Assembly (NCBI RefSeq): GCF_053078305.1
Contig: NZ_CP166879.1
Length of the DNA: 64,000 nucleotides
Direction: 5' to 3' (one strand)
In this document: positions 1 through 12,349 of the stretch, piece by piece
How positions within the stretch are numbered: position 1 is the first letter of the stretch
Layout: each line of letters begins with the position of its first letter
Translations under genes and position numbers: made by a program
Notes under the pieces: model-generated
What the model saw: only the letters and a program-made list of their open reading frames with translations
What the model was told of the DNA's origin: nothing
Database searches by the model: none

Positions 1-935
1 GCCTTTAGCCAGGATTCAATAAAGTCGGCCTGGCTATAGATCTCCGCAAGCTGCTCAATGGTTAACAGAGGTACACGTGCGCTGGCATTGGTGATTATTT
101 CGCTGACAGGCTTTGTCAGATCTTCAAAATCGCTGGCCGCTGTTTGTAAATGCTGCATTTTCTGGGCAGTGCAAATAGCTTTTGCTTTACAGAAGCGGCA
201 CTGTTTTTCTCCAGGTATGAAGTTTTCCAGCGGTAGTGTCTCAATGCCTTCGCATTCAGCAATATTGAGAACAAGGATCGCACTGGTTGCGGCCTCCTGT
301 GCCCGTTCACCGAAAGACTGAAGTTCCTGTACGGTTAACGACCATTCTGAAACGTGGTTGAGCCTTGGCTGGTGAATAAATAATCTTACAGTCTCAAAGT
401 CATACAGCATGCTGAATTGTTCGAGCGCACCCAGAGCATACAGTTGTAGTTGCTCATTTTGTTCTGCATCAATGCGGACGCCTTTGCCATATTTCAGGTC
501 GTGGATTTGTAATTCGTTACCAGCGATGATTATGCCGTCGGCAGTTCCGAAAGATTCTTCCACCCCCGTTATATGTGAGAAATCAACACGTTGTTCAACC
601 AATAGTTCATTATTCTGTGCAAGAGTCCAGACCGTATCAACATACCGGCCAACGGCTTCGACCATTTCATCATCCACCTGTGGGCCAGATGTATCATCAG
701 GATTTTCGCGAAGGGGGTATGAGCCGAGAAACATAGAAACATTGCATCCGGCGTAGTGTTCCGGGTGGCTTTGCCTGTTTCGTAGAACTTTTTCAGCAAG
801 CGCGTGCGCTGCAGTGCCCTCGATTGCAAAAGTTGTTTCTTTATCCGGTTGTGTGGCCTCCAGCGCCAGACTTCCTGGGCAGCGCATCCATCGATGCGCT
901 GATGATGGAGAAAGTTGTGCATGAACGTCTGGCAT
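1..935 (-). CDS. PD-(D/E)XK exonuclease, Cas4-like with C-terminal Cys cluster; C-terminus runs off window start
   Basis: Manual minus-strand translation from ATG at 935-933 gives [23 protein letters not shown]... open to position 1; contains HDLKYGK and [10 protein letters not shown] (C-x2-C-x5-C); absent from ORF track because no stop lies in the window. Confidence 0.55.
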
Positions 936-937
936 GA

Positions 938-1840
938 TTAACCCTCCAGTGCTTTTTCAGCCAGGGTGATTACTTCAGCGAGATTTTCATCCGTTACTTC
1001 ACCAAGTTTCCTGGCTCCCTGTTTTTCCAGAATTGCAATAGCTTCTGCCCGGTAACCCCCTTTTGCTAACTGGAGGATCAACCCTTCAGCTTGTTTGCGT
1101 AGTGCCGCGAAATCAATTGTATGGTCATCTTTGGCGTCATTATTCTGGCTGGAATTTGCTGCGTCTCTGCGTGCAAATTCTTCCTGCAGCTGAAGGTACT
1201 CAACACGGTTGATCTCGATATGGCCTTTTTTAAGCATCTCGTTCAACTTGCGTAAGGTGTGGAGTTCACTGGCTGCTGTGCCGGATACATTTTTGACGTA
1301 AAACGGCCCCGTGCGTTCTCCATCTTTGTTACTGGCCTTTTTCGGCTTAACTTCATCACGCCCATCTGCAGGTGCATCAAGTAGTTGCTCGGCAAAAGCA
1401 CGTCGCTCGCCGATGGTTGGCAGGTCGTCCCAGAACTTAAGAATGTTACGGGACAGGTCCAGAAGAGCGGGTTTATGCAGTGCCCTGGCTCGTTTGACGC
1501 CCTGCAATGCGCTGTCGAGAGCATCAATCTGAACTACTCGTTTATCGCCTTCAGCATCACGGTAGGCAACAGCACGTTGCAGCATGTCTTCTGTGATAGG
1601 GGTGGCTACCGGGTAGAAACCAGCCAGTGCGATAACGTCGCTGAACTCCAGATCATCCAGTGTCATTGCCGCTGACATATTTTCAGTTTCAGTTGCTGTA
1701 TCCCGACATTCCTGCACTCGTGAAATCGTGTCAGGATGCATAACAATACCTGATGCCATTGTGCGGATAAGACGTTCAAGCAGCGCATTATGTTGTGCCA
1801 GAAGTTGATTATTAAGTTCGAGACTGGTTTCTAAACTCAT
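938..1840 (-). CDS. Hypothetical phage early protein (300 aa), immediately upstream of the nuclease; possibly replication or recombination associated
   Basis: ORF track; stop 2 nt before nuclease ATG; no family recognised. Confidence 0.55.
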
Positions 1841-1986
1841 ACTGTGGTCCTCGCAACAAGGAGAATGAAAGTGATGATCAGACCGAGCGCAGTGGCAACG
1901 GCCAGACCGGTCATCAAATCGAAGTTTTTACGGCGATAACGGAGAACATCGCGCCCCGTCAGTCGATAGAGGTGTTCAGGTTTCAT
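1838..1986 (-). CDS. Small predicted membrane protein (49 aa)
   Basis: Manual translation [49 protein letters not shown]; stop overlaps ATG of downstream gene (ATGA). Confidence 0.3.
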
Positions 1987-2102
1987 CGGTTGTATTCCTT
2001 TTTTCATATCGGGGAGCGCGCTGTTGCGAGTGCGCTTTCAGACATAAAAAAGCCCGTCACTTGCGGCGGGCAAAGACTACACACAGCAATTACATGGATG
2101 AT

Positions 2103-2297
2103 TCAGTTGGTATTGTGCGTACGTGGTACCACAAGGTTGAAGCGGACACGCCAGTGCGTTGCAATGGTATGCAGGAAAGCACCACATCCAGGGCAGTGCT
2201 CATAACATTCGTTGATTTGGTATCGTTTTGGCTTTGGTGTCTGAAGCTGTGTTTGGCAAGCAGGGCATTCACCTTTGAGCGGTTTATATGTTTTCAC
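2103..2297 (-). CDS. Small zinc-ribbon-like protein (two CxxC pairs: CPAC and CPGC)
   Basis: ORF track 64 aa; position in early-left operon. Confidence 0.35.
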   Translation of the reverse strand: MKTYKPLKGECPACQTQLQTPKPKRYQINECYEHCPGCGAFLHTIATHWRVRFNLVVPRTHNTN

Positions 2298-2580
2298 GCC
2301 GTTTCCTCATTCAGTTCACTTTGGTGGTTCGGCGGCTTCGACTTGTATCAGTAGGCAGTGCTTCGCCGCACCCCAAAGGGAACTTACTGACCCGTATTGC
2401 CGACATCCTGTCCCGCCACGGTCCCGACGCATGGTTTAGAGTCGCGCCGTTCGACTTGTGGCTAAAGATACAATTTGAGTTGTATTGTGTAAACCACAAA
2501 CGTGGTATTTTGTGGGGTGTGAATACTACTTTATTGATATTTAAGTGAATTTAATTTGTAAGACTTTACAAATGGGGTAA

Positions 2581-2600
2581 GGGAGGCTGTTACGCCTCCC
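2581..2600. terminator. GC-rich hairpin (GGGAGGC / GCCTCCC) 20 nt downstream of repressor stop; possible terminator or attenuator
   Basis: Inverted repeat read directly; flanking U-tract is weak. Confidence 0.3.
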
Positions 2601-2619
2601 GATATTTACGGTGGGAATA

Positions 2620-3243
2620 CTAACGTTTACGGCGGTAAATACGGTGTTCGATCATTACACCTATGATCTGTAAGTTCATATCTGCACTACGAAAAATAGG
2701 GTAATCAGGATTTAGGGGGATTAATTCAAAGTCGTCGATGCCGATTCCTAATGGACGGTATTTTTTAAATGTAGCTTCGTGACCGTCGTTTTTGGCGACA
2801 ACAAACTCCCCTGGTGCAGGACATAGTTCAGGATCGATGATAACAATGTCTCCTTCTTTAAACTCTGGTTGCATGCTGTCGCCATCAATACGTAATGCGA
2901 AGCATGTTTCTGGAATGTCAGAGTCTGCCAAAATATATTCAAATTCCCCTGTCAGATCTGTTATGTCTCTTGCTTCTGTAAGCTCTCCTGCCTGAACGTA
3001 ACTTAATATAGGTATGCGTCTGGTACTTATCTCCGCGAGAGGCATAATATTTTTACCGTTCAGTAGCCAGTCTGGGCTACATTTCAAGGCCTTAGCCAGA
3101 TCCAGAAGATTGCGTGGCTTTCTGGTTCGTCCACTTTCGATGGATTCTATGGATTGTTGGCTAACCCCTGCAGAATTCGCTACTTCCACTTGAGTCATTC
3201 CTAATTCCAAACGACGTGCTTTAAAACGGGCTGCGAGAGACAT
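2620..3243 (-). CDS. CI-like phage repressor (N-terminal HTH, C-terminal S24 LexA-type autopeptidase)
   Basis: HTH signature LGMTQVEVANSAGVSQQSIESIE; S24 motifs GDSM and FKKY; start taken at ATG 3243 (ORF track extends to 3294). Confidence 0.8.
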   Translation of the reverse strand: MSLAARFKARRLELGMTQVEVANSAGVSQQSIESIESGRTRKPRNLLDLAKALKCSPDWLLNGKNIMPLAEISTRRIPILSYVQAGELTEARDITDLTGEFEYILADSDIPETCFALRIDGDSMQPEFKEGDIVIIDPELCPAPGEFVVAKNDGHEATFKKYRPLGIGIDDFELIPLNPDYPIFRSADMNLQIIGVMIEHRIYRRKR

Positions 3244-3363
3244 GGGATTAGTCCTTCTGGGTTGTATTAATGTGTATACCCACATTAAAAACAATTTTTG
3301 TTGTATTTGACAAACCTCATTTGTTGTTGCTAAATACCACTAAAATTGTATGAGGTGAAAGCA
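3244..3363. promoter_or_regulatory. Divergent immunity control region: operator-like palindrome TTAATGTG-N6-CACATTAA (3267-3288), perfect -35 TTGACA (3307-3312), Shine-Dalgarno GAGGTG before cro
   Basis: Read directly from sequence; -10 element is weak. Confidence 0.45.
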
Positions 3364-3576
3364 ATGACCTTAGCGACCCGAGTAAAAGAACGACGTAAAG
3401 AACTCAAAATGACGCAAGTTACGTTGGCTGAGCTCACAGGAGTGAGCCAGCAGGCAATAAACAGAATTGAAAGTGGTGTTATTGCTCGGCCACGTTATCT
3501 TCTTGAAATGTCTATAGCATTGGATTGCGACCCTAATTGGCTGTTGTATGGCTCACAAAACGATAAAAAGGCTTAA
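3364..3576 (+). CDS. Cro-like HTH regulator
   Basis: HTH signature MTQVTLAELTGVSQQAINRIESG; divergent from repressor; start at ATG 3364 with SD. Confidence 0.7.
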   Translation: MTLATRVKERRKELKMTQVTLAELTGVSQQAINRIESGVIARPRYLLEMSIALDCDPNWLLYGSQNDKKA

Positions 3577-3579
3577 CCC

Positions 3580-5772
3580 ATGTCCGATAGCAAACCATGG
3601 GGAGCTACGCCTGATGAGTGGTTTCATTTCGACCTGGTATTGGGGAGAACTGATCATCTTCTCCCAGTTGTATGTAACCCCGGTGCGACCATATCCCCTG
3701 ATAGTAAACTGAAAGCGCTGGGTAAGACGCCAAGTCGCTATAACCGGGACCGCCAGGTCACCGGTATTGCTCAATGGACCGGGTATGTTGTTACTGAGCA
3801 TGATTTTGCCCGCTGGTCGAATGAACCGGATTATGGCATCTGCGTGCGTACAGGCCATGGCTGGCTGGCGCTGGACGGCGATAGCGAAGATGAAGACATT
3901 CAGGCAGATATTCGCAAAACGCTTGTGCAACTTCTGGGGGAGTTGCCGCCGCGACGCTGGCGAGCAAACAGTAATAAGTGTCTGTATCTGCTGGCCGTTG
4001 ATGGTGATTTCCGTAAGCGTATCCATCGCCTGGCGGGGGATATGGGCATTATCGAGTTGCTGGCGAACGGGCAGCAGTTCGTTGCCTGTGGTACGCACAG
4101 CAGCGGCGCGCGTATTGAATGGGACGGTGGTTTGCCGGATGAACCTCCGGCTATTACTGGTGAGCAGCTTGAAACGCTGTGGCAGCGCCTGGCTGAACAA
4201 CTCCCTGTGTCGGTAACCACCGAAGCGGGCAACACGAAGATGCGCGACCGATCAGCATTCACGCCCGGCGCGACGGATGATACAGCTGAATATCTTGATG
4301 CCAATGGCTGGACGCTGCTGGATGGCGCAAATGGTGAACGATATATCCGCTGTCCGTTTGAAGACGGCCACAGTAGCGGGGGCGATCCAACAAGCACAGC
4401 TTATTTTCCTGCGGGAACCGCGGGCTTTGAGCAGGGGCATTTTAAATGCCTGCATGCCAGTTGTGCGCATCGTGATGACGGAGATTTCCTTAATGCCATC
4501 GGGATCCGCAACGACGATTTCGAAGATCTGACCAGCACCGAAGTGGCGGAACCTTTACCGCTGCCTGCTTTCGAGCGTGATAAATGGGGGCGTATCGAGG
4601 CAACCATCAGCAACGCAGCCAAAGCAGTAGTACGCCCTGATTTTGTGGACATCGATATTCGCTTTGACCAGTTCCGCGACGAAATCATGTTTGCCTCTGC
4701 AGGATCCGGACAATGGCGAGCATTCACCGATGCGGATTATGCGCGCCTGCGCATCACGATGGAAAAGCGGGGATTTAAACCTGTTGGTCGTGAACTTATT
4801 CGCGATGTGGTGTTACTTGCAGCCGATGAACAACCATTCGATTCAGCGATTACCTGGCTGAACGGGCTGGAGTGGGATGGCGTGCCGCGCATCGAATGTT
4901 TCTACCATACGCACTTCGGTACAGCCGACACGCCTTATACCCGTGCGGTGTCTATGTACATGTGGACCGCGTTGGCGGGGCGAGTACTGGAGCCAGGCAT
5001 CAAAGCGGATATGGTGCCGATCCTCGTTGGTCCGCAGGGCTGCGGTAAGTCTTCCGGAGTGGAGGCACTGAGCCCTGATCCTGCGTTTTTTACTGAAATC
5101 TCTTTTGCCGAAAAAGACGATGATCTCGCTCGAAAAATGCGTGGTCGGCTGGTGGCAGAGATTGGTGAACTGCGCGGACTTAATACCAAAGAGCTGGAGT
5201 CAATCAAAGCGTTTGTGACGCGTACTCACGAAAACTGGATCCCGAAATACCGGGAGTTCGCCACCCAGTTTCCTCGTCGCCTGGTGTTCGTTGGTACCAC
5301 CAATGAGGACGAATTCCTTGCGGACAAGACTGGTAACCGTCGCTGGCTCCCCGTGGAAGTGTCGAAAGTCGACGTGAAAGCGATAAAAAGAGATCTCCTT
5401 TTACTTTGGGCTGAGGCTCGTGAGGTGTTTCAGCGTCTGGGGGGTATCCAGTTCCGTGAGGCTGAACAACTGGCAGCGAGTGTCCATGAACAGTACACCA
5501 TCAAGGATGCTTGGCTTGAAACGGTAGAGAAATGGCTCGACACGCCAGACCTGATGACTAATGAACTTCCGCGAAATTGCGAATTTTTACGCGCAAGTGA
5601 TGTTTTGCGTGATGCGATTGGGCTAAATCCTGACCGCATCGGAAAACGCGAAGAAATGCGAATTAGTAATGTTTTGCAAAATTGCGGGTATAAGCGTGTC
5701 CAAAGGCGAATTGGGGGGAAAATGACTCGAATTTTTGAGGCGGTGTCCCAACCTGTACCAGCCTCAAAATAG
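3580..5772 (+). CDS. Phage replication primase-helicase (N-terminal primase-polymerase-like region, C-terminal P4/VirE-type NTPase)
   Basis: 730 aa; Walker A GPQGCGKSS; family assignment from recall. Confidence 0.75.
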   Translation: MSDSKPWGATPDEWFHFDLVLGRTDHLLPVVCNPGATISPDSKLKALGKTPSRYNRDRQVTGIAQWTGYVVTEHDFARWSNEPDYGICVRTGHGWLALDGDSEDEDIQADIRKTLVQLLGELPPRRWRANSNKCLYLLAVDGDFRKRIHRLAGDMGIIELLANGQQFVACGTHSSGARIEWDGGLPDEPPAITGEQLETLWQRLAEQLPVSVTTEAGNTKMRDRSAFTPGATDDTAEYLDANGWTLLDGANGERYIRCPFEDGHSSGGDPTSTAYFPAGTAGFEQGHFKCLHASCAHRDDGDFLNAIGIRNDDFEDLTSTEVAEPLPLPAFERDKWGRIEATISNAAKAVVRPDFVDIDIRFDQFRDEIMFASAGSGQWRAFTDADYARLRITMEKRGFKPVGRELIRDVVLLAADEQPFDSAITWLNGLEWDGVPRIECFYHTHFGTADTPYTRAVSMYMWTALAGRVLEPGIKADMVPILVGPQGCGKSSGVEALSPDPAFFTEISFAEKDDDLARKMRGRLVAEIGELRGLNTKELESIKAFVTRTHENWIPKYREFATQFPRRLVFVGTTNEDEFLADKTGNRRWLPVEVSKVDVKAIKRDLLLLWAEAREVFQRLGGIQFREAEQLAASVHEQYTIKDAWLETVEKWLDTPDLMTNELPRNCEFLRASDVLRDAIGLNPDRIGKREEMRISNVLQNCGYKRVQRRIGGKMTRIFEAVSQPVPASK

Positions 5773-5773
5773 A

Positions 5774-5925
5774 GGTTGGTACATTTTAACTAATTGAATT
5801 TAAAGGTCAGTACCAACTGTACCAACTGTACCAACCTAATTACTAAGAACCCCATATATATATATAAGTCGCTTGGGGAAAAGGTTTGAAAAGAGCTGGT
5901 ACAGGTGGGTACAGGTTGGTACAGG
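5774..5925. repeat. Iteron cluster: GTTGGTACA once and TGTACCAAC x3 (5811-5835), AT-rich (TA)n core (5853-5866), inverted GTACAG-type repeats x3 (5896-5924); candidate replication origin
   Basis: Repeats read directly; sits immediately after the primase-helicase stop. Confidence 0.6.
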
Positions 5926-6053
5926 CCGAACAAGGAATTTTTTGCACATAACAGCGTGTAATAAGCGAATCGGAACTGCGTTATCCACACCCACGGATAA
6001 ACAGACGTGGTTCTCAGAAAATTTTTTCGTAGCAAAACGTAGAGGTCAGAGCT

Positions 6054-6476
6054 ATGCGTAATATTCAACAGGTTTTAGAGCGCTGGGGTGGCTGGGCAGC
6101 GAGTGAAGGTGGTAGCGTCTACTTTCCTCCTGTTGCAGCCGGGTTTAAGAATCTGCTACCCGCGACGCAGTCTGGAAGGCTGAAATGCAGTGACAATGAC
6201 GGTCTTATCATCAACTCCGCTATGAGCTGCCTGAAGAAAAAAGATCCGTATCTGTGCACGCTCCTTGAGTGGCATTACGTCCAGGCCATGCCCGTGCGGG
6301 CGATGGGTGAGAAGCTCGGCGTATCTCACACCCACGTTCTGAAGAGGCTTCAGGCGGCAGAGGGATTTATTGACGGTTGCTTAGCCATGCTGGATGTGGT
6401 GCTCGAAATGGATCAGTCGGTTCAGTCAAAGCCTCAGGCTATCAGGACTTTGCGTAGGAGCTGCTCGGCGGCATAA
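6054..6476 (+). CDS. Late-gene antiterminator, Q-like (putative)
   Basis: 140 aa; upstream of lysis cassette; resembles small Q-type antiterminators from recall. Confidence 0.45.
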   Translation: MRNIQQVLERWGGWAASEGGSVYFPPVAAGFKNLLPATQSGRLKCSDNDGLIINSAMSCLKKKDPYLCTLLEWHYVQAMPVRAMGEKLGVSHTHVLKRLQAAEGFIDGCLAMLDVVLEMDQSVQSKPQAIRTLRRSCSAA

Positions 6477-6507
6477 TATCCAGCAATCAATCACGTAAGG
6501 GAACCAG

Positions 6508-6684
6508 ATGGCTCTGATCAGCGTTCGCAACAGATTTGAAAGCTTCATGGAACAGAGGTACCCAGACCTGTCGTTGCAGGTCAAAGGTAATATTGGCGCA
6601 TCAATGAAGGCCCAACTTGGCATCGGATTGAACGAGAATTGTACAGTGAAGATGTTACTTACTGTGATTCAGCAGTTCAGTTGA
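6508..6684 (+). CDS. Small hypothetical protein (58 aa)
   Basis: Manual translation MALISVRNRFESFMEQRYPDL...; SD AAGGGA upstream; stop overlaps next start. Confidence 0.3.
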   Translation: MALISVRNRFESFMEQRYPDLSLQVKGNIGASMKAQLGIGLNENCTVKMLLTVIQQFS

Positions 6685-6848
6685 TGTGGACACTCTTTCA
6701 GGCAGGTGTTCTGGCCGAACGAAGAGCTACCAGCGTTACGCTTCCTGCGCTGAAGGCAAAGCCGGATAGCTTCTACGATGCGGGTTATAACGAAGGTATT
6801 CAGGACTGTCGTAAACATCTGACGGCATCAGGCATCAAGGTAAGATAA
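6684..6848 (+). CDS. Small hypothetical protein (54 aa), translationally coupled to upstream small ORF
   Basis: ATG at 6684 overlaps upstream TGA (TGATG); ORF track lists a longer form from 6639. Confidence 0.3.
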   Translation: MWTLFQAGVLAERRATSVTLPALKAKPDSFYDAGYNEGIQDCRKHLTASGIKVR

Positions 6849-6914
6849 AAAATAGTTGTGGAATTCCAAAAAGCCGATTAGCCTGATATCTGTTGAAAAC
6901 AGTTCATCACGAAG

Positions 6915-6940
6915 AGGCTTCCGCAAGGGGGCCTTTTTTA
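6915..6940 (+). terminator. Rho-independent terminator (stem AGGCTTCC / GGGGGCCT, GCAA loop, T-run)
   Basis: Hairpin plus TTTTT read directly. Confidence 0.5.
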
Positions 6941-7167
6941 TTGCCCCATTCTGGGGAAAAGTTAATAAAACAGGGCTTTCGCTGCGAAAAAACGCTATGC
7001 AGTTTTTGCCCTTTTTTATGCACCTTTTATTCACTCGAATTTCGTCATTCTGGACCACTTAAGTTGATTAAATAGGCCTTTCATCGCAAATCTATTGCGA
7101 GCGGGGATCGTGTGGTTCCTATAACGTACATTATGTTAAATAACTTCCTTTTTTAACAAATTTAACA

Positions 7168-7193
7168 AGGTTCGCTATGGCGAACTTTTTTTT
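7168..7193 (+). terminator. Rho-independent terminator (GTTCGC-TATG-GCGAAC then T8); possible tR'-like terminator ahead of the lysis genes
   Basis: Perfect 6-bp stem and 8 T read directly; tR' role is inference by analogy with lambda. Confidence 0.55.
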
Positions 7194-7294
7194 GTATTCA
7201 GGGCCCACCGAAGGACGGCTCATAACCCAATCCTACGGGCGTATACGCAGGGCCCGCCTTTCAACAACACCCCGTAATGGCGGAGGTGGGAAGT

Positions 7295-7636
7295 ATGAAA
7301 ATGCACAATGCTCCTCATTCCTGGCCTGACTTACTGGAACTCTTACAAAGTTGGTGGCGTGGAGATACGCCGTTGGGCGCAGTGGTTATGTCAATTGTTA
7401 TGGCTGGCTTGCGCATTGCCTATTTTGGCGGTGGCGGCGGCTGGAAACGAAAAACGCTTGAGATTTTGCTCTGTGGTGCTCTGACGCTGACCTTTGCATC
7501 CGCTCTTGAGTATGTTGGATGGCCTAAATCTCTTTCTGTTGCCATTGGTGGTGGTGTTGGGCTGATCGGTGTCGATGCTATTCGTGGGGCTGCAATGCGA
7601 GTAATCGGTAACAAGTTTGGTGGCTCTAAGGAGTAG
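7295..7636 (+). CDS. Holin, class I (three predicted TM segments) with dual-start Met-Lys-Met motif
   Basis: ATG AAA ATG at 7295-7303 after SD GGAGGTGGG; hydrophobic segments; directly upstream of endolysin. Confidence 0.7.
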   Translation: MKMHNAPHSWPDLLELLQSWWRGDTPLGAVVMSIVMAGLRIAYFGGGGGWKRKTLEILLCGALTLTFASALEYVGWPKSLSVAIGGGVGLIGVDAIRGAAMRVIGNKFGGSKE

Positions 7637-7639
7637 TTC

Positions 7640-8116
7640 ATGCAGACACTAAATTCCCAACGTAAAGCTTTCCTGGATATGGTGGCATGGTCAGAAGGAA
7701 CGGATAACGGGCGACAACCGACACGTAATCACGGTTATGACGTTATCGTCGGAGGTGAGTTGTTCACTGATTACTCCGATCACCCTCGCAAACTTGTCAC
7801 GCTAAACCCGAAGCTTAAATCAACAGCCGCAGGCCGGTATCAGCTTCTTTCACGCTGGTGGGATGCCTACCGCAAGCAGCTTGGCCTGAAAGATTTTTCG
7901 CCAGAAAGTCAGGACGCTGTGGCGCTGCAGCAGATTAAAGAGCGTGGCGCTTTACCGATGATTGACCGTGGCGATATTCGTCAGGCAATCGACCGTTGCA
8001 GCAATATCTGGGCGTCGTTACCTGGTGCAGGTTACGGTCAGTATGAACATAAAATCGGTGACCTGATTTCCAGGTTTAAAGATGCTGGTGGGGTGGTAAA
8101 TGAAGCTGACTTATAA
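7640..8116 (+). CDS. R: Endolysin, lambda R-type lytic transglycosylase
   Basis: Near-identical to recalled lambda R N-terminus (QRKAFLDM.AWSEGTDNGRQ.TRNHGYDVIVGGELFTDYSDHPRKLVTLNPKLKST). Confidence 0.9.
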   Translation: MQTLNSQRKAFLDMVAWSEGTDNGRQPTRNHGYDVIVGGELFTDYSDHPRKLVTLNPKLKSTAAGRYQLLSRWWDAYRKQLGLKDFSPESQDAVALQQIKERGALPMIDRGDIRQAIDRCSNIWASLPGAGYGQYEHKIGDLISRFKDAGGVVNEADL

Positions 8117-8624
8117 GATTGTTATCGCGGCATTTTTCTTCTCTGCCTTTGGGGCGCTCGTCTGGTCTGCAAACCATTACCACAGCAAGTATCAGGCAGA
8201 AAAGTTGCGGGCTGATAAAGCGGAAGGTGAAGCTGAATATCAAGGGAAAGTGATAGCTAATCAGGCATTAAACTTCAATCGTTTTAACCAGATAGCAGAA
8301 AAAGCAAGCCGATTAAATTCTCTGGTCGACATCGGTCACGAGAAGACAGTCATCAAATACCGTGAGGTTCTGCTCCGTGAAAAGAACTGTGATTTCCCTG
8401 TTCCTGTTGATATTGCTGTCGGGGTGCTCAACTACGCGAACCGTTTACGCGCCAGCGCATTGCACGCCGATTCCGGGGACATTGACTCAGCCGGTGATCG
8501 TGCCACTACCACCAGAACGTTGACATATTGCCAGGCTGTTCTGTGGATTAACCCACTGTTGGCAGCCATCGAGAAGGCGAATAACCAGTTGGCTGGTGTC
8601 CGACAAATAGAACAGTCCCGGTAA
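8100..8624 (+). CDS. Rz-like i-spanin
   Basis: N-terminal TM segment; follows and overlaps endolysin; contains embedded +1-frame lipoprotein ORF. Confidence 0.65.
   Translation: MKLTYKIVIAAFFFSAFGALVWSANHYHSKYQAEKLRADKAEGEAEYQGKVIANQALNFNRFNQIAEKASRLNSLVDIGHEKTVIKYREVLLREKNCDFPVPVDIAVGVLNYANRLRASALHADSGDIDSAGDRATTTRTLTYCQAVLWINPLLAAIEKANNQLAGVRQIEQSR
8377..8523 (+). CDS. Rz1-like o-spanin lipoprotein embedded in the +1 frame of Rz
   Basis: Manual translation (GTG start assumed) KRTVISLFLLILLSGC... with lipobox LSGC and proline-rich tail PVIVPLPPER; start codon uncertain. Confidence 0.5.
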   Translation: MKRTVISLFLLILLSGCSTTRTVYAPAHCTPIPGTLTQPVIVPLPPER

Positions 8625-8685
8625 TAGCATTACAGAAGCTCTTCCAGGAGGGGCTTCGATAATGACCTGATAACTGGAAAATAAA

Positions 8686-9258
8686 ATGACTAAGAAGCTG
8701 AAAGCAAAACACGAGGTGTTTTGTCGCGAGTTTCTTGTCGATCTGAATGCTACACAAGCAGCTATTCGCGCAGGCTACGTCTCCAGGCGAGCACATGTTA
8801 CGGGGGCTGAACTATACGGTAAACCTGAGATACGCGCCCGTATTAACGAGCTAAAGCAGGAGCGTATTGATCAACTGGGCATTGATGCGAATTATGTGCT
8901 GATGCGACTGGTTGAGATCGACAGGCTCGATGTGGCTGACATCCTGGAGGACGATTTAAGTATTAAGCCTCTGTCTGCGTGGCCGGAATCGTGGCGTCGG
9001 TACCTGAGTGGATTTAACCTCGCTGAAATGTTTGAGGGGCGAGGAGATGACAGAGAAATGGTCGGGATCCTTAAAAAGATTAAGTGGCCTGATAAGGTTA
9101 AAAACCTTGAGTTGCTTGGGCGTCATGTTTCTGTTCAGGCGTTTAAAGACAACGTCAAAAATGAAGTGACTGGCGCTGATGGAGGACCCGTCAGAACAGA
9201 AATTACCAACTTAACGCCGGAGCAGGCTGCAGAAGCGTATAAAAAAATGATGGGCTAA
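8686..9258 (+). CDS. Terminase small subunit (P27-type)
   Basis: 190 aa; position before large terminase; family from recall. Confidence 0.75.
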
Positions 9259-9260
9259 GT

Positions 9261-10883
9261 ATGCCGTTACCATTTCACTTCGATTTTAAACATCCTGATT
9301 ACCAGATGGTTTTTGAATGGCGGATGGAACGCTTACAGCGCATTCGCCAGAACCCTGAAATATTGCCCGTATTGAAGCAGTTTTACCGAACCAATCCGGC
9401 TCAGTTCATCATCGACTGGGGCATGACAACGGACCCGCGTAATATTGATTATGGCCTGCCGGTGACCATTCCGTTTTTACTCTTCCCTAAGCAGGAGGAG
9501 TGGATCCACTGGATTATGGAACGCTGGGGCAATCGGGAGAATGGTATTACCGAAAAATCCCGTGAAATGGGGCTCAGTTGGACCGCGATCGGACTGGCCT
9601 GCTCGCTTTGTCTCTTCAACAAAGAAATGGTTATCGGTTTCGGCTCCCGTAAAGAGGAATACGTCGACAGCACCGGTGACCCGAAAGCATTGTTCTGGAA
9701 GGCACGCAAGTTCGTGGAAACGCTACCTGTAGAGTTTCGCGGTTCGTGGAGCGAGAAGAAGCACGCGCCATATATGCGTGTTGAGTTTCCTGAAACTGGT
9801 GCCGTTATCAAAGGCGAGGCTGGCGATAATATTGGTCGTGGTGACCGTACCACGCTTTATCTGGTTGATGAGGCTGCATTCCTTCAGCGTCCTCTGCTGA
9901 TTGATGCGGCGTTGTCACAAACGACGCGTTGCCGTATCGACCTGAGTTCAGTTAACGGCATGGCTAACCCGTTCGCTCAGAAGCGTCATGGCGGGAAGAT
10001 ACCGGTATTCACATTCCACTGGCGGGATGATCCTCGCAAGGATGAAGAGTGGTATCGCAGGGAATGCGAGAAAATCGATAATCCGGTGGTGGTGGCACAG
10101 GAACTTGATCTGAACTACAGCGCATCAGCGGAAGGCGTTCTGATTCCATCCGAATGGGTACAGGCTGCCGTTGATGCGCATATCAAACTGGGTATCCAGC
10201 CAACAGGCAAACGACTTGGCGCGATGGATGTCGCCGACGAAGGCAGGGACAAAAATGCCTTTTCCACCCGTCATGGCTTCCTCCTGGAAAATGTGCGGGA
10301 ATGGTCCGGTGTGGGCAGCGACATTTATCAGTCCGTCGAGAAGGTTTTCGGCTTTTGCGAACAGGACAACCTCGAAGAGTTTCGCTTTGACGAGGACGGG
10401 CTGGGCGCTGGCGTTCGCGGCGATGCACGCGCTATCAACGAACTGCGTAACGCTGCGCGTCGACCGTCAATACTTGCCACACCGTTTCGAGGTAGTGGCG
10501 CGGTATTTGATCCGGATGATGAAGCTGTTCGCGGGGACAACGGGCAAGCCGCGCGTCTGAACAAGGACTTCTTCGCTAACGCCAAAGCCCAGAGCTGGTG
10601 GCGGTTACGTAAACTTTTTCAGAATACCTGGCGCGCCGTGGTTGAAGGTATGGCTTACAACCCGGACGAAATCATCTCAATCAGCAGTAGCATGGCACTC
10701 AAAGATCAACTCATCATCGAGCTTTCGCAGCCGACCTATTCCATTAATGGTGTGGGAAAAATCGTTATTGATAAACAGCCTGATGGGACCCGGTCGCCAA
10801 ATCTTGCCGACTCGGTGATGATCAACTATGCCCCAATGAATTCAGCCCTGAACATCTGGGAGTTGCTAGGGAGACAGGCCTGA
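9261..10883 (+). CDS. Terminase large subunit
   Basis: 540 aa; position and size; followed by portal. Confidence 0.8.
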
Positions 10884-12349
10884 TGGCACGAAACAAACAA
10901 GCCCTGCGGCGAACTGCGCAGGCCACAGCTGATGGTTATGAGAATTTTATCGCCCGCGTAGGGATGCAGACACCTAACCAGCACTCAGCATCCACCTACC
11001 GGGCTAATTTCACCAGTCGTAACCGCATGCTGGTGGAATGGTCCTATCGTTCTTCCTGGATCATCGGCGAAGCAGTCGATGCTATCCCGGATGATATGAC
11101 CCGCAAAGGCATTCGCATCACTTCGGAAATTGATGCAAAAGATCGTGGCATTCTCGAATCACAACTGGATGAGTTGCAAATCTGGGATGCGCTGAATGAC
11201 GTGCTGAAATGGTCGCGCCTCTACGGCGGCGCGGTGGGTTTCATCATGATTGAGGGGCAGGCACCAATGACCCCGCTGCGACCCGAAACCATCGGTAAGG
11301 GCAAGTTTAAGGGGATTCTCCCGCTCGACCGCTGGATGATTGACCCGGTACTGACCCGCCGCATTAAAGATATGGGGCCGGACCTGGGTAAACCTGAGTT
11401 TTATGATGTGGTGACCACAGCAACGGGAATTCCTGCCTGGCGCATTCATCACAGTCGCCTGATTCGCTTTGATGGCGTCACGCTGCCATTTCAGCAGAAG
11501 ATGACCGAGAACGAATGGGGAATGTCGGTTGTAGAGCGTATCTGGGATCGTCTTACCGCGTTCGACAGCGCTACTGTCGGTGCGGCGCAGCTGGTCTACA
11601 AGGCGCATTTGCGTACCTACAGCGTGGAGAAGCTACGCGAGCTTATCGCACTTGGTGGTCCTGCGTATGAAGCGTTGCTGAAGAATATTGACCTGATTCG
11701 ACAGTTCCAGAGCAATGAAGGCATGACTCTCATGGACTCGCGGGATAAGTTTGAAACCCATCAGTACAGCTTCAGTGGTCTGGATGACATCCTTTCACAG
11801 TTTGCAGAACAGATTAGTGGAGCTGTTGGTATCCCACTGGTGCGGTTGTTCGGACAGTCCCCGAAGGGATTTTCTACCGGCGATGCAGACCTTGCCAACT
11901 ATTACGACCGGGTAAGTTCGTTGCAGGAGAGGCGTTTACGTCTTCCGGTGCGGCGGATACTGGACATCATGCATCGTTCGGAACTTGGCAAGCCGCTCCC
12001 GGATGATTTCACATTTGAGTTTAACCCGCTCTGGCAAATGTCTGATGTCGATCGTTCAACGGTGGCATTAAATACCACCAACGCAATCAGTACAGCGCTG
12101 GGTGATGGTCTGATGACACTGAAAGCTGCTATGACTGATTTGCGCGAAAATTCTGACGTAACCGGCATCGGGGCATCCATTACCGACGAGGACATCGAGA
12201 ATGCCGAAGACGAAGCGCCGCCCGGCATCGGCGAACCTGATGACGAACCGCAGGAACCGTCAGGCGGAAATCCGCTATCGAACCAGCCTACGCAGGATAG
12301 CGCGGGCGGTCGGGGACATCGTAAATGGTCGCTACGATGGTTCAAATGA
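10883..12349 (+). CDS. Portal protein
   Basis: 488 aa with acidic low-complexity C-terminus; follows terminase. Confidence 0.75.
   Translation: MARNKQALRRTAQATADGYENFIARVGMQTPNQHSASTYRANFTSRNRMLVEWSYRSSWIIGEAVDAIPDDMTRKGIRITSEIDAKDRGILESQLDELQIWDALNDVLKWSRLYGGAVGFIMIEGQAPMTPLRPETIGKGKFKGILPLDRWMIDPVLTRRIKDMGPDLGKPEFYDVVTTATGIPAWRIHHSRLIRFDGVTLPFQQKMTENEWGMSVVERIWDRLTAFDSATVGAAQLVYKAHLRTYSVEKLRELIALGGPAYEALLKNIDLIRQFQSNEGMTLMDSRDKFETHQYSFSGLDDILSQFAEQISGAVGIPLVRLFGQSPKGFSTGDADLANYYDRVSSLQERRLRLPVRRILDIMHRSELGKPLPDDFTFEFNPLWQMSDVDRSTVALNTTNAISTALGDGLMTLKAAMTDLRENSDVTGIGASITDEDIENAEDEAPPGIGEPDDEPQEPSGGNPLSNQPTQDSAGGRGHRKWSLRWFK

What the first reader, a model, noticed from the sequence alone, without database searches (positions are those of the whole stretch)
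1..2297. Early-left operon: Cas4-like nuclease cut by the window edge, with unknown partners
A minus-strand operon runs from a zinc-ribbon miniprotein through a 49-aa membrane peptide and a 300-aa unknown protein into a PD-(D/E)XK nuclease with a Cas4-type cysteine cluster that continues past position 1. The nuclease is invisible in the ORF track because it lacks a stop in the window. This is likely a phage recombination or anti-restriction module.
Basis: partly seen in the sequence, partly recalled or inferred. Interest (0 to 1): 0.3.

Follow-up and report, generated by a model that had tools for sequence, protein, structure and literature searches.

The report
Put-controlled prophage early-left replication operon
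This is the repressor-controlled "early-left" operon of an E. coli prophage, carrying a well-known phage replication/recombination gene set led by an intact RecB/Cas4-like nuclease; it is ordinary, except that its internal terminator copies the 3' half of the host regulatory RNA RprA.

Summary
On the minus strand of 1-2297 lie a 64-aa zinc-ribbon ORF, a 49-aa membrane peptide, a 300-aa protein and the first 311 codons of a DUF2800 PD-(D/E)XK nuclease. In a 99.9% identical E. coli prophage the nuclease is an intact 433-aa gene.

This is the start of the known phage duf2800-gp2.5(DUF2815)-polA replication/recombination module. I found no support for anti-restriction. The 300-aa protein has no single-strand-annealing or SSB fold. 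It is a module-specific accessory protein of unknown activity.

- A CI-operator-covered pL promoter at 2465-2493.
- A homologue of the HK022 putL antiterminator RNA at 2384-2458.
- An intrinsic terminator at 2046-2071 between the zinc-ribbon ORF and the membrane peptide.

The 24 nt ending in that terminator's 5' arm are identical to nt 59-82 of chromosomal RprA. This is the single-stranded part of the RNase E-processed form RprAproc. The same 19-nt core followed by a terminator recurs in at least 92 distinct viral contexts. I found no paper describing it.

The main finding is a new member of a known kind. The RprA-like cassette is the part worth following up.

The parts
1..935 (-). First 311 codons of the DUF2800 PD-(D/E)XK nuclease. 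The full gene is 433 aa; its last 122 codons lie left of the window.
938..1840 (-). 300-aa accessory protein of the module. Layout: N-terminal helix, all-alpha domain 58-165, optional beta/alpha insert 177-234, C-terminal three-helix bundle 244-299.
   Evidence: PHROG 6784 4e-180; C-terminus matches PHROG 408. 588 homologues; the 120 listed are Enterobacteriaceae or unnamed metagenomic, all 'hypothetical'. AF2 pLDDT 87.6. No informative fold match. Lies directly upstream of DUF2800 in relatives of 25-30% identity. The C-terminal domain also exists alone, upstream of DUF2800 or DUF2815.
1837..1986 (-). 49-aa peptide with a basic N-terminus and a C-terminal transmembrane helix. Its stop overlaps the start of the 300-aa gene (ATGA).
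   Evidence: PHROG 11981 1.4e-36. RefSeq CDS WP_000801676. Two of three distant relatives (L020, L021) carry a small TM peptide in the same position; the L022 peptide has no TM stretch.
2046..2071 (-). Intrinsic-terminator-like element (candidate tL): hairpin 2052-2071 (GCCCGCCGCAAGUGACGGGC) followed by U6 (2046-2051).
   Evidence: Sequence. Rfam structure line. Fold of 2040-2100. The simple terminator scan missed it because the loop is longer than 8 nt.
2068..2091 (-). RprA-like core AAUUGCUGUGUGUAGUCUUUGCCC, identical to nt 59-82 of chromosomal RprA. Together with the terminator it corresponds to processed RprA (the last 47 nt).
   Evidence: Rfam RF00034 hit at 2042-2151, 48.2 bits (gathering score 70), E 7e-5. 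BLAST hits annotated rprA in 5420 of 5426 E. coli genomes. Alignment to rprA. RprAproc defined as the last 47 nt (PMC9262595). Recurs in phages.
2103..2297 (-). 64-aa zinc-ribbon ORF (GTG start, stop UGA 2105-2103). It occupies a variable slot between put and the terminator.
   Evidence: Five Cys are invariant in an Enterobacter bugandensis homologue of 76% identity. dN/dS is 0.24 and 0.15. Weak, sub-threshold zinc-finger Pfam hits. Not annotated in RefSeq. The slot holds an unrelated 33-aa ORF in L004; in phage 606R2 it instead holds two genes annotated on the opposite strand.
2384..2458 (-). putL-like cis-acting antiterminator RNA (HK022 put family).
   Evidence: blastn gives 82% identity to the putL region of HK022 and to putL as annotated in HK75 and O276, and 84% to the 'putL-like antiterminator RNA' of HK639. 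Two stem-loops, 7 pairs with compensatory changes. Spacing from the -10 hexamer is 13 nt, as in HK022. The -10-like AACCAT is present. 100% identical in an Enterobacter prophage whose neighbouring ORF has dS 0.58.
2465..2493 (-). pL-like sigma-70 promoter (TTTACA-17-TATCTT), overlapped by the operator palindrome ATACAA-N6-TTGTAT (2468-2485).
   Evidence: Promoter scan. The palindrome is unique in 64 kb, expected 0.01. Related copies at 3291-3308 and 3333-3351 between cI and cro. A different palindrome sits at the same place in a hetero-immune relative.

Best explanation
Window 1-2493 (minus strand) is the proximal part of the CI-repressed early-left (pL) operon of an E. coli prophage. In a sequenced strain this prophage sits next to yfhL.

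Proposed sequence of events:
1. When the repressor is inactivated, sigma-70 RNA polymerase starts at about 2458.
2. It immediately transcribes a putL-like RNA. As in phage HK022, this RNA is expected to bind the beta' zinc-binding domain of the polymerase that made it and make it resistant to terminators.
3. The modified polymerase reads through the terminator at 2046-2071. It then expresses the membrane peptide, the 300-aa accessory protein and the DUF2800 nuclease.
4. Beyond the window it expresses DUF2815 (a T7 Gp2.5-like ssDNA-binding/annealing protein), a family A DNA polymerase, a TIR protein, VRR-NUC, a helicase, an excisionase-like regulator and the integrase.

The nuclease is a RecB/AddB/AdnA/Cas4-type enzyme with a four-cysteine (probably 4Fe-4S) cluster. 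It most likely resects DNA ends for Gp2.5-type annealing and recombination-dependent replication.

Transcripts that do stop at the terminator end in a copy of processed RprA.

Shown here: the gene content, the homologies, the conserved RNA structure, the operators and the synteny. Inferred: antitermination activity, nuclease polarity and role, and any sRNA activity.
For: Genes and families.

Intact nuclease and downstream genes in the 99.9% identical L001.

Same order (small peptide, this family, DUF2800, Enc34_ssDNA-bd, PolA) in relatives of 25-30% identity.

Published 'duf2800-gp2.5-polA module': PMC8093625.

A DUF2800 protein of phage Bas14 described as AdnA/RecB-like: bioRxiv 10.64898/2026.07.14.737667.

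Invariant catalytic residues and Cys cluster.

Promoter and operators.

put homology, covariation and position.

put mechanism: PMC9378689.

Terminator.
Against: - No expression or activity data exist for any part.
- The promoter is only a 9/12 consensus match, and such matches are not enriched in the region (6 found against 4.2 expected).
- The terminator stem is weak (5 G-C pairs plus an irregular extension) and the local fold is no better than shuffles (z 0.03).
- The bulged nucleotide in lower stem II, which is U68 in HK022 and needed there for antitermination, is G here.
- No putR was found for the right operon.
- The DUF2800 model is poor outside the core (mean pLDDT 57.7).
- The functions of the 300-aa protein, the peptide and the zinc-ribbon protein remain unknown.
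Confidence: 0.82

Rival explanations
1. The RprA-like 3' cassette is a functional phage small RNA. Transcripts ending at the pL terminator are cut by RNase E just upstream of AAUUGCUG. This releases a roughly 47-nt Hfq-binding mimic of processed RprA, which acts on RprA targets or competes with host RprA. It would be analogous to StxS, made from the terminated pR' transcript of Shiga-toxin phages. This adds to the best explanation rather than replacing it.
For: - 24 of 24 nt are identical to RprA nt 59-82, followed by a terminator of different sequence.
- In L016 and L004 the terminator loop (UCCCA) also matches RprA.
- The shared part equals RprAproc, the last 47 nt.
- The 19-nt core is invariant across a lambdoid E. 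coli phage (LLS), a temperate Cronobacter phage (phiES15), Erwinia N4-like phages and a large plasmid, with differing terminator stems.
- At least 92 non-redundant viral contexts carry it, and 84 have a hairpin plus T-run within 69 nt.
- The core stays identical where the neighbouring ORF has dS 0.58.
- The StxS precedent.
Against: - There are no expression, Hfq-binding or target data.
- The 19-mer was searched as an exact word, so its invariance in the viral set is by construction.
- The Rfam score is below the gathering score (48 against 70).
- The region that pairs with rpoS is not conserved (the extent of that pairing region is from my own knowledge).
- The mosaic junction falls exactly at the core edge (2099/2100). 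The sequence could therefore persist as a recombination linker or simply as a good terminator module.
Confidence: 0.4
2. The similarity to RprA has no regulatory meaning. The segment is only an efficient terminator module, or a conserved recombination joint, that has spread among phages and plasmids by mosaic exchange. RprA and this module merely share ancestry.
For: - Mosaic boundaries at 2099/2100 in many genomes and in phage 606R2.
- The cassette is attached to unrelated upstream ORFs.
- In 57 of 64 viral loci the next large ORF downstream is co-directional, as expected for an internal operon terminator.
Against: - A terminator needs only a hairpin and a U-run, yet the hairpins vary freely while the 19 nt upstream stay fixed.
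- That 19-nt stretch is also the most conserved part of the Rfam RprA consensus.
Confidence: 0.4
3. One reading: an anti-restriction or anti-defence module in which the nuclease and its partners counter host restriction.
For: - Early-left operons of lambdoid phages often carry such genes (own knowledge).
- A TIR-domain protein matching a PADLOC candidate defence family (PDC-S35, E 7e-109) lies in the same operon outside the window.
Against: - No Pfam, PHROG, NCBIfam or PADLOC match to any anti-restriction family for the four proteins.
- The conserved partners are an SSB-like protein and a DNA polymerase.
- A DUF2800 protein is reported as a trigger of a retron defence, not an inhibitor.
Confidence: 0.05
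4. The nuclease is a true phage-borne Cas4 that acts on CRISPR spacer acquisition.
Against: - The best family is DUF2800, not Cas_Cas4.
- AdnA, Dna2 and AddA score as well or better.
- It has a 180-residue C-terminal extension absent from Cas4.
- There is no CRISPR array or cas gene nearby.
- Synteny is with replication genes.
Confidence: 0.03

Closest known systems
duf2800-gp2.5(DUF2815)-polA replication/recombination module of phages (Steczkiewicz et al. 2012, as cited in PMC8093625; DUF2815 is the Pfam family named Enc34_ssDNA-bd)
   Same: Same gene order: DUF2800 nuclease, DUF2815, then a family A polymerase. A VapE/Prim-Pol primase-helicase lies nearby and there is no separate ssb gene.
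   Different: Here the module is embedded in a lambdoid-style immunity region and is preceded by a 300-aa protein and a small membrane peptide. These are specific to the enterobacterial branch, although their C-terminal domain also occurs as smaller stand-alone proteins in the same position upstream of the module. A TIR (PDC-S35) gene is inserted downstream.
HK022 pL-putL antitermination system (King et al. 1996; cryo-EM structure in PMC9378689)
   Same: A 75-nt RNA starts 13 nt after the -10 hexamer of a repressor-controlled leftward promoter. It is 82% identical to putL and has two stem-loops with compensatory changes. It carries the conserved -10-like AACCAT and is followed by a small variable gene and a terminator.
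   Different: - The inner stem II is one base pair shorter through a symmetric deletion.
- The bulged stem-II nucleotide is G, not U.
- No putR was detected; HK639's record, in the stretch examined, likewise annotates only one put-like RNA.
- The operon it serves encodes a PolA-type replication module rather than Nun and Red/Erf-type functions.
RecB-family nucleases with an iron-sulfur cluster (AdnA/AdnB, AddB, Dna2, Cas4)
   Different: It is a stand-alone protein without a helicase domain, with a conserved C-terminal extension of about 180 residues ending in an acidic tail. It is not CRISPR-associated, and Pfam places it in DUF2800 rather than Cas_Cas4.
RprA (Rfam RF00034), specifically its RNase E-processed form RprAproc
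   Same: 24 nt are identical to RprA nt 59-82. The architecture is the same: a small hairpin, CUUU, then a GC-rich terminator and a U-run. There is partial similarity back to CUGA(A/G)U.
   Different: It lacks the 5' stem-loop and the rpoS-pairing sequence. The Rfam score is below gathering (48 against 70). It lies in the 3' UTR of a phage ORF inside an operon, not at the ydiK-ydiL locus under the Rcs-controlled promoter reported for rprA. The terminator sequence differs.
StxS, the sRNA made from the terminated pR' leader of Shiga-toxin phages (PMC7547250)
   Same: A lambdoid-phage transcript that stops at a terminator normally overcome by antitermination could yield an RNase E-processed, Hfq-type sRNA resembling core sRNAs.
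   Different: StxS comes from the late promoter and is experimentally shown to act on rpoS. The element here comes from the early-left promoter, has no experimental support, and copies a different part of RprA.

Membership tests
Pfam DUF2800 (PF10926) phage nuclease | Significant match to the family profile above its gathering score | tested here: met
   274.7 bits against a cutoff of 21, E 1.7e-81. Residues 5-311 align to profile positions 1-273 of 368. The rest of the profile is covered by the part of the gene outside the window (L001).
Pfam DUF2800 (PF10926) phage nuclease | Gene context duf2800-gp2.5/DUF2815-polA | tested here: met
   L001 annotation. L016, L020, L021, L022 and L145. Literature.
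RecB-like PD-(D/E)XK nucleases with Fe-S cluster (AddB/AdnA/Dna2/Cas4 type) | Catalytic motifs D...(D/E)xK and QxxxY | tested here: met
   D133, D146-L-K148 and Q162-x3-Y166 are invariant in 6 sequences down to 49% identity.
RecB-like PD-(D/E)XK nucleases with Fe-S cluster (AddB/AdnA/Dna2/Cas4 type) | Four cysteines: one N-terminal plus C-x2-C-x5-C at the C-terminal side of the nuclease core | tested here: met
   C19 is present in 5 of 6 sequences; the sixth is an N-terminally truncated gene call. C246, C249 and C255 are invariant.
RecB-like PD-(D/E)XK nucleases with Fe-S cluster (AddB/AdnA/Dna2/Cas4 type) | Fold similarity to solved members | tested here: met
RecB-like PD-(D/E)XK nucleases with Fe-S cluster (AddB/AdnA/Dna2/Cas4 type) | Bound 4Fe-4S cluster and nuclease activity | not testable with these tools
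   Requires purified protein.
Cas4 proper (CRISPR-associated, Pfam Cas_Cas4) | Best match to the Cas4 profile and association with cas genes or a CRISPR array | tested here: not met
   No Pfam Cas_Cas4 hit. The PADLOC Cas4 match is only E 0.003. No cas genes in the 27.6 kb around the gene in L001.
HK022 put antiterminator RNA | Sequence homology to putL/putR | tested here: met
   82% identity over 72 nt to the putL region of HK022 and to putL as annotated in HK75 and O276; 84% over 61 nt to the 'putL-like antiterminator RNA' of HK639.
HK022 put antiterminator RNA | Two stem-loops supported by covariation | tested here: met
   RNAalifold on 9 sequences gives 19 pairs, 7 of them with changes on both sides. 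The window copy keeps all helices, with a symmetric 1-bp deletion in inner stem II. The covariance model scores 84.8 bits, but the sequence was in the training set.
HK022 put antiterminator RNA | Location just downstream of the early-left promoter; conserved -10-like AACCAT | tested here: met
   GAACGG starts 13 nt after the -10 hexamer both here and in HK022/O276. AACCAT is present.
HK022 put antiterminator RNA | Bulged U (U68) in lower stem II, required for antitermination | tested here: inconclusive
   A bulged nucleotide is present at the equivalent place, but it is G (my reading of alignment A5; requirement from PMC9378689).
HK022 put antiterminator RNA | Cis-acting suppression of terminators, dependent on the beta' zinc-binding domain | not testable with these tools
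   Needs reporter assays and rpoC mutants.
RprA sRNA (Rfam RF00034) | Score at or above the family gathering score over the full model | tested here: not met
   48.2 bits against a gathering score of 70. The 5' stem-loop region aligns poorly.
RprA sRNA (Rfam RF00034) | Conserved 3' core plus terminator (the RprAproc part) | tested here: met
   24 of 24 nt are identical to rprA nt 59-82, and the secondary structure is the same. RprAproc is the last 47 nt.
RprA sRNA (Rfam RF00034) | Stable Hfq-dependent transcript with regulatory activity | not testable with these tools
   Needs Northern blots, RIL-seq and reporter assays.
Lambdoid CI-controlled early-left operon | Repressor gene with S24 peptidase domain, divergent cro, and shared operators at both early promoters | tested here: met
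   CI has HTH_3 plus Peptidase_S24, and Cro has HTH_3. The palindrome ATACAA-N6-TTGTAT lies at 2468-2485, with related copies at 3291-3308 and 3333-3351.

The most novel reading that the evidence does not exclude
The first terminator of the early-left operon is a phage-borne copy of processed RprA. On induction or infection, transcripts that stop there (or are cut there) would release an Hfq-dependent mimic of a core host sRNA. This would let the phage rewire or jam the RprA regulon. RprA targets reported in the literature include biofilm genes csgD and ydaM, lrhA (recently linked to CRISPR-Cas expression), narP, and the Salmonella conjugation inhibitor ricI. The same 19-nt core plus a terminator occurs in at least 92 distinct viral contexts. 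These include lambdoid and other temperate phages (LLS, phiES15), N4-like Erwinia phages and large plasmids. It would therefore be a widespread, undescribed class of phage sRNA mimics.
Probability: 0.35. Interest if true: 0.7.

Novelty: new member of a known kind. Interest (0 to 1): 0.4.

Why it matters
The operon itself adds little. It shows that the known duf2800-gp2.5-polA replication module can be placed under HK022-type, RNA-mediated (put) antitermination in a prophage present in about 3% of complete E. coli genomes (153 of 5426). It also defines two conserved, uncharacterised companions of that module, the small membrane peptide and the 300-aa protein with a three-helix C-terminal domain.

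The potentially important part is the RprA-like cassette. If it is active, phages and plasmids widely carry a copy of the most conserved part of a core stress sRNA. That would be a new example of phage mimicry of host riboregulation. It would also give a handle on the still unclear function of processed RprA.

Tried and rejected
- **300-aa protein as annealing protein, SSB or Gam-like.** Rejected. No profile or PDB sequence match. No informative fold match despite a confident model. The afdb50 library was unavailable.
- **Zinc-ribbon ORF as a chance ORF.** Rejected. dN/dS is 0.15-0.24 and the five Cys are invariant in an Enterobacter homologue.
- **Zinc-ribbon protein as an N-like antiterminator essential for the operon.** Rejected. 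The slot holds an unrelated 33-aa ORF in L004, and phage 606R2 has no such ORF there, while put and the terminator stay.
- **A second put (putR) in the right operon.** Not found by blastn or by a covariance model with filters off over 1-12000.
- **The conserved leader as a short ORF (SNGATLNHASG).** Rejected. The window copy lacks the start codon, and an indel shifts the frame relative to L007.
- **The conserved leader as an Rfam family.** No hit.
- **The RprA-like hits in viral contigs as chromosomal rprA caught in mis-bounded prophages.** Rejected. None of 79 variants has the rprA 5' half.
- **The known prophage sRNAs PasA-D of EPEC as the same element.** The core sequence is absent from that paper's supplementary files.
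- **Literature searches for a phage RprA-like element.** Nothing found. The key RprA paper (Papenfort 2015) is not held, so which targets the 3' core pairs with rests on my memory only.
Full report
**1. Observation**

- The nuclease reading frame starts with ATG at 935-933 and stays open for 311 codons down to base 1. It is absent from the ORF list only because ORFs that run off the source are not listed.
- It matches Pfam DUF2800 (E 1.7e-81) and PDDEXK_1 (E 1.2e-10), and PHROG 69 'exonuclease'.
- The 300-aa ORF (938-1840) is PHROG 6784 and the 49-aa ORF (1837-1986) is PHROG 11981, both of unknown function. The two overlap by ATGA.
- The 64-aa ORF (2103-2297) has a GTG start, a GAGGA ribosome-binding site, and the cysteine pattern CPAC...CxxxCxxC.

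**2. Extending leftwards**

- The first 3600 bases match 153 of 5426 complete E. coli genomes, always on chromosomes.
- In strain FDAARGOS_1059 (99.9% identical) the nuclease is an intact 433-aa gene.
- It is followed by DUF2815, a plus-strand hypothetical gene, a family A DNA polymerase, a TIR-domain gene, a frameshifted ANR regulator, VRR-NUC, a DEAD/DEAH helicase, an HTH regulator and a tyrosine integrase next to yfhL.
The gene is not a pseudogene.
- Three sequenced E. coli phages (vB_EcoM-606R2 and relatives) share 1-2099 at 99%.

**3. The nuclease**

- An alignment with homologues down to 49% identity shows these residues invariant: E39-G-T and H44, D133, D146-L-K148, Q162...Y166 and C246-x2-C249-x5-C255. 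C19 is present in all properly called genes.
- This is the motif set of RecB-family nucleases that carry an iron-sulfur cluster.
- An AlphaFold model built from only six sequences is weak overall (pLDDT 57.7) but acceptable in the core.
- 'Cas4-like' is a fair description of the fold and the cysteine cluster. Membership of Cas4 proper is not met: the family is DUF2800, there is no CRISPR context, and a conserved C-terminal extension of about 180 residues is present.
- The literature describes a 'duf2800-gp2.5-polA module' in phages of both Gram-positive and Gram-negative hosts (PMC8093625).
- A 2026 preprint describes a DUF2800 protein of phage Bas14 as AdnA/RecB-like and as the trigger of a type IX retron.

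**4. The 300-aa protein and the peptide**

- The 300-aa family has 588 members, all 'hypothetical'; the 120 listed carry Enterobacteriaceae names or none. It has 69 representatives at 50% clustering.
- The AlphaFold model is confident (pLDDT 87.6) but multi-domain (pTM 0.49). It shows an N-terminal helix, a disordered linker, an all-alpha domain (58-165), a small beta/alpha insert that many homologues lack (177-234), and a C-terminal three-helix bundle (244-299).
- What is informative is synteny. In relatives of 25-30% identity the gene always sits directly upstream of DUF2800, Enc34_ssDNA-bd and PolA. In two of those three relatives it is preceded by a small membrane peptide.
- The C-terminal domain also exists as stand-alone proteins of 100-126 aa. 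These sit directly upstream of DUF2800, or upstream of DUF2815 in a module that lacks the nuclease.
- I therefore read it as a module-specific accessory or adaptor protein. Its activity is unknown, and a protein-protein docking role for the C-terminal bundle is only a guess.

**5. The zinc-ribbon ORF**

- RefSeq does not annotate it, and only three clusters exist in a 5.8-billion-protein collection.
- It is nevertheless under purifying selection. Against an Enterobacter bugandensis prophage copy (76% identity), all five cysteines are invariant and dN/dS is 0.24. A second pair gives 0.15.
- It occupies a variable slot. Strain Sx181 carries an unrelated acidic 33-aa ORF there. In phage 606R2 the slot instead holds two genes annotated on the opposite strand.
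- It is thus a real but dispensable, moron-like gene of unknown role.

**6.

Promoter and operators:
- Downstream of the cI-type repressor gene (HTH_3 plus Peptidase_S24), the minus strand has a promoter-like site TTTACA-17-TATCTT at 2493-2465.
- It is overlapped by a palindrome, ATACAA-N6-TTGTAT (2468-2485), that is unique in the 64-kb window, with 0.01 expected by chance.
- Related copies lie at 3291-3308 and 3333-3351 between cI and cro.
- A hetero-immune relative has a different palindrome at the same spot.

The put RNA:
- Beginning at about 2458, the next 100 bases or so are identical even in prophages that are otherwise about 83% identical, and in the Enterobacter prophage.
- blastn shows this leader is 82% identical to the putL region of phage HK022 and to putL as annotated in HK75 and O276. 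It is 84% identical to the 'putL-like antiterminator RNA' of HK639.
- Homologues sit between the repressor gene and the first leftward gene in classical lambdoid prophages.
- An alignment of nine put sequences folds into the two known stem-loops, with seven pairs showing compensatory changes. The window copy keeps every helix and has a symmetric one-base-pair deletion in inner stem II.
- The GAACGG motif starts 13 nt after the -10 hexamer, as in HK022. The -10-like AACCAT that all putL share is present.
- The bulged stem-II nucleotide, U68 in HK022, is G here.
- No second put was found in the right operon.

Mechanism known from HK022:
- The nascent put RNA binds the beta' zinc-binding domain of RNA polymerase.
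- This suppresses pausing and both intrinsic and Rho-dependent termination over many kilobases, with no phage protein needed (PMC9378689).
- This explains how transcription can pass the terminator described next.

**7. The terminator and its resemblance to RprA**

In the window:
- Immediately after the stop codon of the zinc-ribbon ORF, Rfam reports a full-length but sub-threshold match to RprA at 2042-2151 (48.2 bits, gathering score 70, E 7e-5).
- The match is driven by 24 nt, AAUUGCUGUGUGUAGUCUUUGCCC (2091-2068), identical to nt 59-82 of the annotated chromosomal rprA. A GC-rich hairpin of different sequence and U6 follow.
- BLAST of this stretch hits annotated rprA in 5420 of 5426 E. coli genomes, plus about 187 further places, 29 of them on plasmids.
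- The shared part is what the literature calls RprAproc, the last 47 nt that coexist with full-length RprA in vivo (PMC9262595).
- In two relatives the terminator loop (UCCCA) also matches RprA. This argues for common descent rather than convergence.
- The mosaic junction between this prophage and phage 606R2-type genomes lies exactly at the 5' edge of the core (2099/2100).

Elsewhere:
- The 19-nt core is invariant in phage LLS (between the repressor gene and the first leftward gene) and in Cronobacter phage phiES15 (upstream of kil).
- It is also invariant in N4-like Erwinia phages. A copy with one mismatch (AAUAGCUG...) lies behind an 86-aa ORF on a 280-kb plasmid. Each has its own terminator stem.
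- These give 92 non-redundant contexts. None contains the rprA 5' half, and 84 have a hairpin plus T-run within 17-69 nt.
- In 57 of 64 loci with enough flank, the next large ORF downstream is co-directional.
- Nine of 100 loci also carry a put RNA upstream.
- No Rfam family reaches its gathering score over the motif in twelve sample loci.
- I found no paper describing such an element.

**8. Interpretation of the cassette**

- The safe statement is that this is the first intrinsic terminator of the left operon and that it shares ancestry with the 3' half of RprA.
- The more interesting reading is that terminated or processed transcripts act as an RprAproc mimic. StxS of Shiga-toxin phages is a precedent. 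RprA targets such as lrhA, csgD and narP are possible stakes.
- Two observations favour a sequence-specific role. The terminator stems vary freely while the upstream 19 nt do not. That stretch is also the most conserved part of the RprA family consensus.
- Several points count against it. There are no expression data. Invariance in the viral set is by construction. The junction position fits a recombination-linker role.
- I give the functional-mimic reading about 0.35-0.4.

**9. Verdict**

It is a replication/recombination module, the nuclease is an intact RecB/Cas4-type enzyme, there is no sign of anti-restriction, and the 300-aa protein is not an annealing protein.
- The operon is a new member of known kinds: the duf2800-gp2.5-polA module under HK022-type put antitermination.
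- Interest for the operon itself is low.
- The RprA-like terminator cassette raises the overall score to moderate and deserves an experiment.

Noticed in passing
window 2042-2099 (minus strand): The terminator cassette has 24 nt identical to chromosomal RprA nt 59-82 (the processed RprA part). The same 19-nt core plus a terminator recurs in at least 92 distinct viral contexts, and a copy with one mismatch lies on a large plasmid. I found no description in the literature searched.
   Followed up: partly
window 2384-2458 (minus strand): A homologue of the HK022 putL antiterminator RNA lies at the start of the left operon. It is 100% conserved in an Enterobacter bugandensis prophage. It has a symmetric 1-bp deletion in stem II and a bulged G where HK022 has U68.
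   Followed up: yes
window 2468-2485, 3291-3308, 3333-3351: Three copies of an operator-like palindrome (ATACAA-N6-TTGTAT and variants) lie at the leftward promoter and between cI and cro. Hetero-immune relatives carry other palindromes at the same positions.
   Followed up: partly
window 2337-2346 and 2450-2459: An exact 10-nt direct repeat (minus strand ACAAGUCGAA) occurs at the 5' end of put and again just upstream of the zinc-ribbon ribosome-binding site. The second copy continues GCCGCCGAACC. It may be a remnant of a duplicated put stem I. Unexplained.
   Followed up: no
window 2576-2596: A perfect 7-bp GC-rich hairpin (GGGAGGC-tgttac-GCCTCCC) lies just downstream of the cI stop codon and upstream of the pL promoter. 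It is probably the terminator of the repressor transcript.
   Followed up: no
window 2099/2100, about 2340 and about 2461: These are sharp mosaic boundaries shared by many E. coli prophages. One group of genomes matches only from 2099/2100 leftwards, a second only from about 2340 leftwards, and a third only from about 2461 leftwards. The zinc-ribbon ORF with its RBS, and the put leader, therefore behave as separate exchangeable modules.
   Followed up: partly
L001 7452-8213 (outside the window, same operon): A TIR-domain protein matching the PADLOC candidate defence family PDC-S35 (E 7e-109) is inserted between the DNA polymerase and VRR-NUC genes of the prophage. It is also present in phage vB_EcoM-606R2.
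   Followed up: no
L004 about 3300-3400 (E. coli Sx181 prophage): In place of the zinc-ribbon ORF there is an unrelated acidic 33-aa ORF (VDDYEAYFDSLKEGEEALSYEDYRATLAVSPIP). It ends in the same CUGAAUCAU context, and its cassette has CCCCUGA as in RprA nt 41-47.
   Followed up: no
L023 2744-3060 (280-kb plasmid of E. coli ATCC BAA-196): An 86-aa hypothetical ORF ends in ...CUGAAUCAUCCUGUAAUAGCUGUGUGUAGUCUUUGCCC plus a terminator. The RprA-like 3' cassette is therefore also attached to plasmid genes, here next to a RES/Xre toxin-antitoxin pair and umuDC.
   Followed up: no
window 3580-5772 and about 6054-6476: The right operon encodes a 730-aa VapE primase-helicase-type protein (Pfam VapE-like domain; PHROG DNA helicase/primase families; Prim-Pol in the Enterobacter homologue) directly after cro. 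In the near-identical genome a Q-family antiterminator follows. No putR was found, so left and right operons seem to use different antitermination strategies.
   Followed up: partly
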